The position numbers and the translations under genes were made by a program. 64,000 nt of DNA, taken from contig SVTV01000008.1 of assembly GCA_015063605.1 (NCBI GenBank), positions 5,038 to 69,037 on the forward strand. The letters are read 5' to 3'. The stretch is from Oscillospiraceae bacterium (GTDB lineage: Bacteria > Bacillota > Clostridia > Oscillospirales > SIG627). Positions 8,112 to 8,548 of this stretch are shown here, one piece after another. Position 1 is the first letter of the stretch, and every line of letters begins with the position of its first letter. The notes under the pieces were generated by a model. That model did no database searches. It saw only the letters and a list, made by a program, of their open reading frames with translations, and was not told the origin of the DNA.

Positions 8112-8548
8112 CATGTAATGTTAATTCAAGCTTGTGTTTGATCTTCACAGCGGTGCATGAGGATATTCCAAAATGTATGCCCGGATTACATTCGCGCTTG
8201 AGCCTGACAAGCTCAATTTTTAGCGGGTTCGAATCCCGCTGTACGCATAAGCGTATCGCCTGTGGATGGGTTTTGTCCTTCGGGACGCAAAAGAACGGTA
8301 CACGAAATCGTGTGCGAGAACGTTTTTATTCAGACATTCGTTATCATTCGGCAAAGCGAGAAGTGCTTCGGTACATCTCGCAGAGCAATGCAAAAGCAAG
8401 CCTTGCCTGAGAATGGATACCGTGTTATCCAAAACAGTGCCAAAAGATTTCTTTCCGCACTGTGCAGGAGGCACTCAAATTTTCAGCCGCTGCTTTTGCA
8501 TGGATGATGACGAAACGACTTTACTACCTTTAAGGAGGATTACATATT
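8112..8548 (+). ncRNA. long structured 5' leader / candidate sRNA precursor upstream of SPFH-rtcB
   Basis: About 435 nt with no convincing ORF. It has two UUCG-capped hairpins (8275-8286, 8356-8381). A hairpin at 8298-8315 is followed by T5 at 8323-8327. An 11-nt long-range complement links 8388-8398 and 8491-8501. A tRNA-like element is also present. Confidence 0.45.
8174..8247 (+). ncRNA. tRNA-like element (not a canonical tRNA)
   Basis: The anticodon-arm-like hairpin TTGAGC-CTGACAA-GCTCAA is at 8198-8216. A 5-nt U linker follows, then a canonical T arm AGCGGG-TTCGAAT-CCCGCT at 8222-8240. The acceptor-like pairing TGTATGC/GTACGCA has one mismatch. There is no D stem and no CCA. Confidence 0.5.

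What the first reader, a model, noticed from the sequence alone, without database searches (positions are those of the whole stretch)
8112..8548. A 435-nt highly structured leader with a tRNA-like element in front of SPFH-rtcB
Seen in sequence: there is no credible ORF, only overlapping short ORFs in several frames without an RBS. A tRNA-like unit lies at 8174-8247. It has an anticodon-arm-like hairpin TTGAGC-CTGACAA-GCTCAA, a 5-nt U linker and a canonical T arm with loop TTCGAAT. Its acceptor-like pairing is imperfect and it has no D stem. Two UUCG-tetraloop hairpins lie at 8275-8286 and 8356-8381. A hairpin at 8298-8315 is followed by T5. An 11-nt long-range complement links ATGCAAAAGCA (8388-8398) and TGCTTTTGCAT (8491-8501). 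The segment AAACAGTGCC (8442-8451) is identical to the 3' side of Y module 6 (6448-6457). It has two alternative partners, GCACTG (8457-8462) and GGCACT (8471-8476). Inference: this could be a second Y/YrlB-like sRNA locus. It could also be a cis-regulatory leader (attenuator) for rtcB. A third, more speculative option is a tRNA-mimic decoy or sensor whose cleavage by anticodon nucleases generates the inducing ligand for the WYL regulators.
Basis: partly seen in the sequence, partly recalled or inferred. Interest (0 to 1): 0.65.

Follow-up and report, generated by a model that had tools for sequence, protein, structure and literature searches.

The report
tRNA-mimic RNA heading SPFH-RtcB operon
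The 435 bases in front of the SPFH-rtcB genes encode a real, conserved, elaborately folded non-coding RNA with a rearranged tRNA look-alike inside it; it is most likely the RNA partner of this RNA-repair gene set, a partner predicted in 2016 but never shown experimentally.

Summary
Window 8112-8548 has no conserved ORF. It folds far better than shuffled sequence (z = -6.4). It is conserved upstream of the SPFH gene in 96 of 98 related loci. A 104-pair structure is 89.6% paired across 57 homologs, against 32-47% when the partners are slid. 78 of its pairs show compensatory changes.

The supposed acceptor 5' strand is really the 3' strand of an invariant hairpin. The T arm is followed by a closed acceptor-like hairpin and a mini D hairpin. 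The order is therefore anticodon-like hairpin, T arm, closed acceptor hairpin, D hairpin, as in the bacterial Y RNA YrlA: a circularly permuted tRNA mimic. The T5 run is not a conserved terminator. The identity to "Y module 6" is chance.

The element belongs to the kind predicted by Burroughs and Aravind (2016): a tRNA-like RNA associated with Band-7/SPFH in RNA-repair operons. Here it sits inside a ~400-nt RNA with a lineage-specific 170-nt 3' domain that is absent from Rfam.

Best reading: an operon-encoded RNA cofactor or scaffold partner of SPFH and RtcB. A cis-regulatory role is not excluded, but terminator-based attenuation is unsupported. I rate it a new variant of a known kind, interest about 0.55.

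The parts
8061..8111 (+). Promoter and operator of the RNA-SPFH-rtcB unit. TTCGCAG-T7-CCGTG is invariant, and the extended -10 TGGTAAAAT lies at 8100-8108. The likely transcription start is about 8113-8116.
   Evidence: It is 86% identical to 5880-5930 in the window (D1). The hexamers were found. The columns are invariant across 57 homologs. The WYL and WCX regulator genes end less than 200 nt upstream in 48 of 55 loci.
8113..8191 (+). 5' domain. P0 is 8113-8119/8185-8191 (AUGUAAU/AUUACAU here, GCAAG/CUUGC in most homologs). P0b is the hairpin 8126-8131/8136-8141. P1 is the hairpin 8150-8180 (GCG/UGC, UGCAU/AUGUA, GGA/UCC), whose sequence is nearly invariant.
   Evidence: helices 1-4, are 95%, 88%, 99% and 99% paired. 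Compensatory changes occur at columns 111/129, 112/128 and 117/121 (AU 29, CG 25). The invariant G.U pairs fix the + strand.
8198..8216 (+). Anticodon-arm-like hairpin, in the position of the YrlA 'V' arm. It has a 6-bp stem and the 7-nt loop CUGACAA, and is followed by a 5-6 nt linker.
   Evidence: helices 5-6, show compensatory changes in the stem. The loop is most often YUGUNAA among homologs.
8222..8240 (+). T arm: a 5-bp stem GCGGG/CCCGC (plus A-U) with the loop UUCGAAU.
   Evidence: helix 7, is 98.6% paired with CG-to-UA and GC-to-AU exchanges. The loop is TTCGAAT in 33 of 39 sequences. Rfam gives a partial tmRNA T-arm match.
8241..8256 (+). Closed acceptor-stem-like hairpin (AS): GUACGC/GCGUAU with the loop AUAA.
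   Evidence: helix 8, is 93% paired, with 4 of 6 pairs showing compensatory changes (for example UA 24 and CG 22).
8259..8270 (+). Mini D-arm-like hairpin: CCUG/UGGG with the loop UGGA, in which the GG is conserved.
   Evidence: helix 9, is 91% paired. The loop is NGGN in 35 of 39 sequences. The re-permuted construct is called a tRNA by ARAGORN.
8274..8315 (+). Two connector hairpins. P5 is 8274-8278/8283-8287 with a UUCG loop. P6 is 8298-8304/8309-8315. The T5 run at 8323-8327 follows.
   Evidence: helices 10-11: P5 changes from GUCC/GGAC to GCCG/CGGC and P6 from GUACAC to GUGUGC across groups. There is no conserved terminator.
8340..8511 (+). 3' domain. It is closed by P7 (8340-8349/8502-8511) and contains:
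- P8, 8356-8381
- P9, 8388-8398/8491-8501
- P10-P12, 8400-8414/8479-8490
- P15, 8422-8424/8472-8474 and 8428-8430/8467-8469
- P13, 8434-8440/8457-8463
- P14, 8443-8446/8451-8454
Invariant single-stranded motifs include GGAUACCG (8415-8422), CCAAAAG and CUUUCCGC.
   Evidence: Model R1 scores 180.9 bits in the window. It matches once each in 96 of 98 loci. In alignment A4, 90.6% of cells are paired against 34-44% when slid, and 52 of 54 pairs show compensatory changes.
8512..8548 (+). Linker with the Shine-Dalgarno sequence AAGGAGG (8532-8538) before the SPFH start codon at 8549. It is not part of any covarying helix.
8549..10875 (+). Downstream genes: the SPFH/Band-7 (slipin) protein at 8549-9670 and the RNA ligase RtcB at 9667-10875.
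   Evidence: Pfam PF01145, E = 5.9e-31, and PF01139, E = 9.5e-58. Stomatin structures match residues 137-346.

Best explanation
Window 8113-8511 is a ~400-nt structured non-coding RNA. It is transcribed from the WYL-type regulated promoter as the first part of the SPFH-rtcB transcript.

Its middle (8198-8270) is a circularly permuted tRNA mimic. In order it has an anticodon-arm-like hairpin, a 5-nt 'variable' linker, a canonical T arm, an acceptor-like stem closed by a loop, and a mini D hairpin whose GG can dock on the T loop. This is the architecture of the bacterial Y RNA YrlA. It is also the kind of tRNA-like RNA that Burroughs and Aravind predicted next to Band-7/SPFH proteins in RNA-repair operons.

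Proposed mechanism:
- The RNA is the cognate RNA partner of the soluble SPFH protein, in the way a Y RNA is the partner of Ro.
- The invariant P1 hairpin and the 3' domain give protein-binding surfaces.
- The tRNA-shaped module engages a tRNA-recognising factor: RtcB or whichever end-healing enzyme follows SPFH, or damaged tRNA-handling proteins.
- Repair of cleaved tRNAs would thus take place on an SPFH-RNA scaffold.

Shown here: the RNA is real, it has this structure, it has the tRNA-like topology, it is strictly linked to SPFH, and no conserved terminator lies inside it or between it and the first downstream gene.

Inferred: it acts in trans or as an RNP component, possibly after being cut out of the 5' UTR, and who its protein partners are.
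For: - Structure: z = -6.44. RNAalifold gives 58 pairs, 44 with compensatory changes. The 104-pair model is 89.6% paired against 32-47% when slid, with a covariation score of 0.339 against at most 0.104 and 0 of 500 shuffles reaching it. The 3' domain was tested on 92 distinct sequences.
- tRNA mimicry: ARAGORN finds no tRNA in the native order in the window. It calls a tRNA in the re-permuted construct of 22 of 57 homologs, the window included. The rate is 32 of 1140 when the acceptor-5'/D block is shuffled, and 3 of 57 in the native order.
- Conserved loops: the T loop is TTCGAAT and the D-like loop is NGGN.
- The order T arm, closed acceptor stem, D arm, with an upstream V hairpin, is how YrlA is described.
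- Linkage: model R1 hits 96 of 98 loci once each. In the 80 SPFH-anchored loci, which are oriented so that SPFH is on the + strand, every hit is on the + strand upstream of SPFH. A motif scan blind to proteins found 18 metagenome loci. In 13 of these SPFH follows the motif; four end too soon to tell, and one (L081) has no SPFH within 1.2 kb.
- The cassette WYL-WCX-promoter-RNA-SPFH is present in 48 of 55 loci.
- The enzyme after SPFH varies: RtcB, a HIRAN protein, a calcineurin-like phosphoesterase, and the RlaP nucleotidyltransferase in E. coli. SPFH is always there, and the RNA is present in every Clostridia locus that has upstream sequence.
- Proteobacterial slipin operons also have 450-530-nt leaders with T arms behind sigma-54 promoters. 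Burkholderia has a cloverleaf that ARAGORN calls (3666-3738). In E. coli a closed hairpin follows the T arm.
- Literature: the Band-7-associated tRNA-like RNA has been predicted, and YrlA is occasionally found next to Band-7. Y RNAs are processed from operon transcripts.
- The SPFH protein shows no hydrophobic anchor by eye, which fits a soluble scaffold.
Against: - There are no expression, processing or binding data.
- No terminator separates the RNA from SPFH. It is therefore physically a 5' UTR, and a cis role is equally compatible with its position.
- The distance from promoter to start codon is conserved at about 440-540 nt.
- The D-like hairpin is much smaller than a real D arm.
- The 3' domain is not detected in proteobacterial leaders. 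Homology across phyla rests mainly on the T arm: model R2 gives 15.9 bits in E. coli, E about 0.012 on a rough scale.
- I could not read the original description of b7a-tRNA.
Confidence: 0.55

Rival explanations
1. It is a cis-acting regulatory leader. The folded 5' UTR senses a signal and controls expression of SPFH-rtcB in cis. The signal could be a protein such as RtcB or SPFH binding its own tRNA-shaped leader (as ThrRS binds the tRNA-like thrS operator), a damaged-tRNA fragment, or a small molecule. Control could act through translation, Rho-dependent termination or mRNA stability.
For: - It lies between the promoter and the first gene of the operon with no terminator in between.
- The leader length is conserved.
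- The folded RNA starts within a few bases of the predicted transcription start.
- In the window only, the 5' end AUGUAAU can pair either with 8185-8191 or with the identical AUUACAU at 8539-8545 next to the Shine-Dalgarno sequence. The MFE fold chooses the latter.
Against: - No terminator-like hairpin recurs at one position in more than 4 of 57 homologs.
- The Shine-Dalgarno sequence and start codon lie outside all covarying helices.
- The tRNA-like module is about 280 nt from the Shine-Dalgarno sequence.
- In about ten loci roughly 640 extra nucleotides separate the intact RNA from SPFH; in the two loci examined (L022, L048) they hold an ORF of about 220 aa.
- The pairing of the 5' end with the Shine-Dalgarno-proximal site is not possible in the consensus sequence.
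- The closest characterised relatives, the YrlA RNAs, are RNP components and not leaders.
Confidence: 0.25
2. It is a decoy or sensor for anticodon nucleases. The anticodon-like hairpin imitates the loop of GUN-anticodon tRNAs (Asp, Asn, His, Tyr), which are the targets of colicin E5-type tRNases and of tRNA-guanine transglycosylase. The RNA either soaks up such toxins or is cut by them. Cutting would yield 2',3'-cyclic-phosphate fragments that feed back on the WYL regulators or are resealed by RtcB.
For: - The hairpin has a 5-6-bp stem, a 7-nt loop and a 5-nt spacer to the T arm, exactly as in a tRNA.
- Among 43 homologous 7-nt loops, 29 read YUGUN followed by two further bases, usually AA. 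N36 varies (CUGUCAA 15, CUGUAAA 5, CUGUUAA 4) while U33-G34-U35 stays.
- The context is an RNA-repair operon.
- A competitive-inhibitor role was suggested for YrlA.
- That UGU at positions 33-35 is the determinant for TGT and that colicin E5 cuts at 34/35 is from my own knowledge of those enzymes.
Against: - 18 of 70 homologs have no 7-nt loop there, having tetraloops or 6-nt loops instead. The window's loop is CUGACAA.
- The counts are not phylogenetically independent.
- Salmonella YrlA is not cleaved by the anticodon nuclease that induces its operon.
- The RNA is made only from the regulated promoter, so it would be scarce before induction.
Confidence: 0.12
3. It is a second Ro-type Y RNA (YrlB-like) that serves the neighbouring DUF2828/DUF7788 'Ro-like' protein at 6487-7953.
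For: - In the window it lies directly downstream of that gene, behind a copy of the same promoter that drives the Y-like array.
- It has YrlA-like topology.
Against: - The DUF2828 gene is within 5 kb in only 3 of 80 loci that carry the RNA. The window's arrangement looks like an insertion into the usual cassette.
- The Ro-binding motif GNCGAAN0-1G is absent from the window and is not conserved: 14 of 57 leaders have it, at scattered positions.
- Models R1 and R2 find nothing in the Y-like array except the T arm of module 6.
- The 488-aa protein has no TROVE hit in Pfam and no Ro60 hit in the PDB.
Confidence: 0.05

Closest known systems
Band-7-associated tRNA-like RNA (b7a-tRNA), predicted by Burroughs and Aravind, Nucleic Acids Res 2016, as summarised in Wang et al. 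2018 (bioRxiv 10.1101/312249)
   Same: - It is a non-coding, tRNA-like element encoded next to a Band-7/SPFH protein and RtcB, or another repair enzyme, in an inducible RNA-repair operon.
- It was predicted by comparative genomics only.
- I found such elements upstream of slipin genes in Burkholderia (a cloverleaf that ARAGORN calls) and Photobacterium.
   Different: - b7a-tRNA is said to 'strongly resemble an authentic tRNA'. The window element is not detected by ARAGORN or by the Rfam tRNA model in native order. Its acceptor stem is closed and its D hairpin follows the T arm.
- It is embedded in a ~400-nt RNA whose 170-nt 3' domain was not found in the proteobacterial leaders.
- Regulation is by WYL-type proteins and a sigma-70-like promoter rather than RtcR and sigma-54.
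YrlA, the tRNA-mimicking bacterial Y RNA (Chen et al., RNA 2014, PMC4201824; Wang et al. 2018)
   Same: - The order of elements is the same: V hairpin, T stem-loop, closed acceptor-like stem-loop, D stem-loop.
- It has a tRNA-type T loop.
- It is encoded inside or at the head of an RtcB-containing repair operon and co-transcribed with it.
   Different: - There is no GNCGAAN0-1G Ro-binding motif and no long Ro-binding stem closing the domain.
- It is not linked to a TROVE/Ro60 gene.
- The D hairpin has only a 4-5-nt loop.
- The upstream hairpin looks like a complete anticodon arm.
- The whole RNA is three to four times longer.
Circularly permuted tRNA genes of the red alga Cyanidioschyzon merolae (from my own knowledge, not checked here)
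   Same: The 3' half of the tRNA (anticodon arm, T arm, acceptor 3' strand) lies upstream of the 5' half (acceptor 5' strand, D arm). The two are joined through a loop at the acceptor end.
   Different: - Those genes give functional tRNAs after circularisation and RNase P/Z cleavage.
- Here the D arm is vestigial and the acceptor stem has 6 bp.
- Nothing indicates maturation to a decoding tRNA.
tRNA-like regulatory leaders such as the E. coli thrS operator (from my own knowledge)
   Same: A tRNA-shaped element in the 5' UTR of a gene whose product handles tRNA.
   Different: - The thrS operator abuts the Shine-Dalgarno sequence and works by competing with the ribosome.
- Here the mimic is about 280 nt upstream of a Shine-Dalgarno sequence that no covarying helix includes.

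Membership tests
YrlA-type bacterial Y RNA | A conserved T stem-loop with a tRNA-like T loop. | tested here: met
   GCGGG/UUCGAAU/CCCGC lies at 8223-8239. It is 98.6% paired with compensatory changes, and the loop is TTCGAAT in 33 of 39 sequences.
YrlA-type bacterial Y RNA | The order V hairpin, T, closed acceptor-like stem-loop (AS), D stem-loop. | tested here: met
   Helices 5-9. The re-permuted sequence is called a tRNA in 22 of 57 homologs, against 2.8% of shuffled controls.
YrlA-type bacterial Y RNA | A D stem-loop with tRNA-like conserved D-loop nucleotides. | tested here: inconclusive
   The stem has 4 bp and the GG is conserved (NGGN in 35 of 39). The loop has only 4-5 nt, with no counterpart of A14/R15.
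YrlA-type bacterial Y RNA | The GNCGAAN0-1G motif near the 5' end (the presumed Ro60 binding site). | tested here: not met
   It is absent from the window. It is present in 14 of 57 leaders at scattered positions.
YrlA-type bacterial Y RNA | It is encoded next to a Ro60/TROVE gene and bound by Ro60. | tested here: not met
   The neighbouring 488-aa protein matches DUF2828/DUF7788 and has no TROVE hit and no Ro60 hit. That gene is adjacent in 3 of 80 loci. Binding itself cannot be tested with these tools.
Band-7-associated tRNA-like RNA (b7a-tRNA) | It is encoded next to a Band-7/SPFH gene in an operon with RtcB or another RNA-repair enzyme. | tested here: met
Band-7-associated tRNA-like RNA (b7a-tRNA) | It strongly resembles an authentic tRNA, with a linear cloverleaf. 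| tested here: not met
   ARAGORN finds no gene in the window. The Rfam tRNA model gives no hit in 8112-8548. Only the circular re-permutation scores as a tRNA. The Burkholderia relative does have the linear cloverleaf.
Band-7-associated tRNA-like RNA (b7a-tRNA) | It matches the original alignment or model of Burroughs and Aravind 2016. | not testable with these tools
   The paper is not held, and there is no Rfam family for it.
Transcription-attenuating leader or riboswitch | An expression platform: a conserved intrinsic terminator with an antiterminator, or a helix that sequesters the Shine-Dalgarno sequence. | tested here: not met
   No terminator-like site recurs in more than 4 of 57 homologs. 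The Shine-Dalgarno sequence lies outside all covarying helices.
Any curated Rfam family | It reaches the family's gathering score. | tested here: not met
   The gathering-threshold scan of the window finds only RNase P and the tRNA-like module at 6379-6451. The permissive scan of 5700-8700 gives only sub-threshold fragments over the T arm.

The most novel reading that the evidence does not exclude
The leader is a bait built from a permuted tRNA(Asp/GUN-type) gene. Its anticodon-like loop is cut by a colicin E5-like or other anticodon nuclease (or is processed at the break next to position 26). RtcB, made from the same transcript, then acts on it, by resealing it or by ligating its ends into a circular or tRNA-shaped product. 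The resulting cyclic-phosphate fragments are the signal read by the two WYL-family regulators. The operon would thus carry its own damage reporter.
Probability: 0.1. Interest if true: 0.85.

Novelty: new variant of a known kind. Interest (0 to 1): 0.55.

Why it matters
The idea that SPFH/Band-7 proteins in RNA-repair operons work with a dedicated tRNA-like RNA has stood since 2016 without experimental support. What RtcB operons repair in bacteria, and how Y-RNA-like tRNA mimics contribute, also remain open.

This locus gives a well-defined test object. It is a large, covariation-proven RNA with precise helix boundaries, present in about a hundred gut Clostridia genomes, cultured species included. 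It has a conserved promoter and operator, and a constant partner (SPFH) with variable repair enzymes.

The analysis also shows that the tRNA mimic next to SPFH can take the permuted, YrlA-like form. It shows that in this lineage the mimic is only one module of a much larger RNA that no curated family covers. That RNA would be worth adding to RNA family databases and genome annotation.

Tried and rejected
- Rfam at gathering and permissive thresholds found no family for the region.
- ARAGORN on the native sequence found no tRNA.
- I tried to read Burroughs and Aravind 2016 by DOI and by PMC id. It is not held, so the b7a-tRNA definition comes only second-hand.
- Searches for 'b7a-tRNA', SPFH+RtcB and Band-7/slipin/RlaP turned up no experimental work on the RNA.
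- The search for homologous proteins with SPFH listed only close relatives, so it gave no route to distant loci. The phage collection had no SPFH homolog.
- The 3' domain model R1 found nothing in the E. coli, Citrobacter, Burkholderia or Photobacterium leaders. I therefore dropped the idea that the whole 400-nt RNA is shared across phyla.
- I considered that the 3' domain resembles the upstream Y-like modules, since both contain AGCAA, CUUG and CGGAUA. I rejected this because the order of the motifs differs and R1 finds no match there.
- My first all-against-all covariation listing was too noisy to use. Explicit helix tests replaced it.
- I rejected the reading in which GTATGCC (8174-8180) is the acceptor 5' strand. 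That strand is invariant, while the strand after the T arm covaries with 8251-8256.
- I rejected a protein-coding reading. ORFs in the leaders differ in frame, start and end between homologs.
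Full report
**1. What is in the sequence**

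The finding covers the gap between a 488-aa DUF2828/DUF7788 gene (6487-7953) and an SPFH/Band-7 gene (8549-9670). The SPFH gene overlaps rtcB (9667-10875). A terminator-like hairpin with a T run follows the upstream gene (7959-7984). A sigma-70-like promoter with an extended -10 lies at 8080-8108. The 51 bases 8061-8111 are 86% identical to 5880-5930, the promoter in front of the upstream Y-like array. Transcription should therefore start at about 8113-8116.

As RNA, 8112-8548 folds to -155.8 kcal/mol. Shuffles give -118.0 +/- 5.9, so z = -6.44. Rfam has no family for it, and ARAGORN finds no tRNA in the window.

**2. Conservation**

A search with the SPFH protein returned 80 loci from uncultured Clostridia and Oscillospiraceae, plus Ruthenibacterium.
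- The leader is recognisable by BLASTN in nearly all of them, at 67-89% identity.
- The distance from promoter to start codon is held at about 440-540 nt.
- About ten loci carry roughly 640 extra nucleotides between the RNA and SPFH. In the two loci examined these hold an ORF of 215-221 aa with no significant Pfam match.
- The usual cassette is WYL protein, WCX protein, promoter, RNA, SPFH, in 48 of 55 loci.
- The window is unusual. It has the Y-like array, the DUF2828 gene and a second copy of the promoter inserted between the regulators and the RNA. That gene is adjacent in only 3 of 80 loci.

A scan of metagenome contigs with a 23-nt motif from the RNA, blind to proteins, gave 18 loci. In 13 of them SPFH follows the motif. 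Four end too soon to tell. One (L081), with IS66-type ORFs alongside, has no SPFH within 1.2 kb.

A covariance model of the 3' domain (R1) matches once in each of 96 of 98 loci. The two misses have almost no upstream sequence. In the SPFH-anchored loci every match is on the SPFH strand, upstream of SPFH.

**3. Structure**

RNAalifold on 57 leaders predicts 58 pairs, 44 of them with compensatory changes. I extended this to 104 pairs in 17 helices.
- 89.6% of cells are paired, against 32-47% when the partners are slid by 1-3 columns.
- 78 pairs have changes on both sides.
- The covariation score is 0.339 against at most 0.104, and 0 of 500 shuffles reach it.
- Invariant G.U pairs (for example columns 106/133, 57 of 57) fix the + strand.

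For the 3' domain on 92 distinct sequences the figures are 90.6% paired against 34-44%, with 52 of 54 pairs compensatory. That alignment was fitted to the model, which favours it; the MAFFT-based test is not subject to this.

The window coordinates of the helices are given in the parts list.

No ORF is conserved in frame or position. No terminator-like hairpin recurs at one position in more than 4 of 57 leaders.

**4.

- The hairpins, the T arm and the 11-nt long-range complement are real.
- GTATGCC (8174-8180) is the 3' strand of the nearly invariant hairpin 8150-8180. It is not an acceptor strand.
- The strand after the T arm (8241-8246) covaries with 8251-8256 (for example GUGCGU/ACGUAU and GUAUGC/GCAUAU). 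The acceptor-like stem is therefore closed by a loop.
- It is followed by CG and a 4-bp hairpin with an NGGN loop.
- AAACAGTGCC is at 8432-8441. It is one strand of a stem that changes freely between homologs, so its identity to module 6 is chance.
- GGCACT belongs to another helix (8422-8424/8472-8474, helix 5).
- The T5 run is not a conserved terminator.

**5. The tRNA-like module**

The order is: hairpin with a 7-nt loop, 5-nt linker, T arm, closed acceptor-like stem, D-like hairpin. This is a tRNA cut between the D arm and the anticodon arm and closed at the acceptor end.

I rebuilt the linear tRNA order from each homolog: acceptor 5' strand plus D hairpin, then anticodon-like hairpin through T arm, then acceptor 3' strand plus ACCA.
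- ARAGORN at default settings calls a tRNA in 22 of 57, the window included.
- It of 1140 when the 5' block is shuffled.
- It of 57 in the native order.

The same order (V, T, AS, D) is the published description of YrlA.

The loop of the anticodon-like hairpin is most often YUGUN followed by two bases, usually AA (29 of 43 seven-nucleotide loops). The window has CUGACAA, and 18 of 70 homologs have no 7-nt loop.

More distant homologs carry a second hairpin-plus-T-arm unit upstream.

**6. Relation to what is known**

Wang et al. (2018) report a prediction by Burroughs and Aravind (2016): next to Band-7 proteins and RtcB lies a 'band 7-associated tRNA' that resembles an authentic tRNA. They add that YrlA is occasionally found next to Band-7, and that none of this had been validated. 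I could not obtain the 2016 paper.

Full-length SPFH homologs (33-35% identity) occur in Proteobacteria.
- In E. coli and Citrobacter the gene is followed by the RlaP nucleotidyltransferase. It is preceded by a 450-530-nt gap that begins, in E. coli, with a sigma-54-type promoter. In Citrobacter rtcR is divergent.
- In Burkholderia, ARAGORN calls a tRNA-like cloverleaf 260 nt upstream of the gene, with a GAAA tetraloop in place of the anticodon loop. A further T arm lies just before it.
- In E. coli a closed hairpin directly follows the T arm. My model of the module (R2) aligns there full-length but weakly: 15.9 bits, E about 0.012.
- The 3' domain model finds nothing in these leaders.

The class (a tRNA-like RNA heading SPFH repair operons) is therefore known as a prediction and is widespread. 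The window's version is a permuted, YrlA-like form inside a much larger, lineage-specific RNA.

It fails two defining features of YrlA: the Ro-binding motif and linkage to Ro. It also fails the 'authentic tRNA' feature of b7a-tRNA. I therefore file it as a new variant rather than a member of either.

**7. How it most likely works**

Three things are constant across the Clostridia loci: the promoter/operator, the RNA and SPFH. The enzyme after SPFH varies: RtcB, a HIRAN protein or a phosphoesterase. In E. coli it is RlaP.

That pattern, the soluble-looking SPFH protein, and the precedent of Ro with Y RNAs processed from repair-operon transcripts favour an RNA partner of an SPFH scaffold that presents a tRNA-shaped module to repair factors. 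I put this at about 0.55.

A cis-regulatory leader remains possible, at about 0.25. The RNA is physically the 5' UTR. In the window alone, its 5' end can also pair next to the Shine-Dalgarno sequence. But there is no conserved terminator, and no conserved helix involves the Shine-Dalgarno sequence.

A decoy or sensor for anticodon nucleases, at about 0.12, is suggested by the GUN-type loop. It is weakened by the loss of that loop in many homologs and by the finding that Salmonella YrlA is not cleaved.

A Ro-type Y RNA for the DUF2828 protein is unlikely, at about 0.05.

**8. Verdict**

The finding is a genuine and well-supported structured RNA. It is a new variant of a predicted but unvalidated kind, absent from Rfam. 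It offers a concrete handle on the open question of what tRNA-like RNAs do in bacterial RNA repair.

Noticed in passing
window 5930-6460 and 6487-7953: An array of about six Y-like modules lies in front of a DUF2828/DUF7788 gene. Each module has a stem flanked by ACAGCAA and CUUG, and several carry CGGAUA. The last module (6379-6451) scores 34.5 bits on the Rfam tRNA model, yet ARAGORN does not call it. Compared with the usual cassette in 48 of 55 related loci, this whole block looks like an insertion.
   Followed up: partly
window 5880-5930, 8061-8111 and 8027-8038: The promoter/operator is duplicated at 86% identity, with the core TTCGCAG-T7-CCGTG invariant in all 57 homologs. An inverted copy of TCCGTGAAAAAA lies 38 nt upstream of the second promoter. 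This is presumably the binding site of the WYL/WCX regulators at 3720-5878.
   Followed up: partly
window 8113-8119, 8183-8191 and 8537-8545: GGATTACAT occurs twice in the window. The 5' end AUGUAAU can therefore pair either inside the 5' domain or next to the Shine-Dalgarno sequence, and the MFE fold picks the latter. The consensus 5' end (GCAAG) cannot pair at the Shine-Dalgarno-proximal site. This is either a chance feature or a switch specific to this strain.
   Followed up: partly
L022 4318-4983, L048 2802-3449; also L001, L038, L046, L047, L065, L069: In about ten loci roughly 640 extra nucleotides lie between the RNA and SPFH. In L022 and L048 they hold an ORF of 215-221 aa with no significant Pfam match. 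The L022 product has a hydrophobic N-terminus.
   Followed up: partly
L018 6237-7112, L026 6338-7471, L099 5131-5922: The gene after SPFH is not always rtcB. It is a HIRAN-domain protein in L018, a calcineurin-like phosphoesterase in L026, and the RlaP nucleotidyltransferase in E. coli and Citrobacter.
   Followed up: partly
L100 3476-3738, L099 3680-3860, L101 3546-3995: Proteobacterial slipin operons have long leaders of 450-530 nt, behind sigma-54-type promoters in E. coli and Burkholderia, with one or two T arms. Burkholderia has a cloverleaf with a GAAA tetraloop in place of the anticodon loop. In E. coli a closed hairpin follows the T arm. Nothing is listed in these gaps in the gene tables I had, which do not include RNA genes.
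   Followed up: partly
L013 about 4870-4970 (alignment A1 columns 566-666): One homolog carries an insertion of about 100 nt in the junction between helices P15a and P15b of the 3' domain. The rest of the RNA is intact.
   Followed up: no
L081 1993-2768 and 3043-3222: This is the only locus where the RNA is not followed by SPFH within 1.2 kb. IS66-type ORFs lie immediately upstream, which suggests a rearrangement.
   Followed up: no
window 25288-25662: Bacterial RNase P RNA class A is present, at 258.9 bits in Rfam.
   Followed up: no
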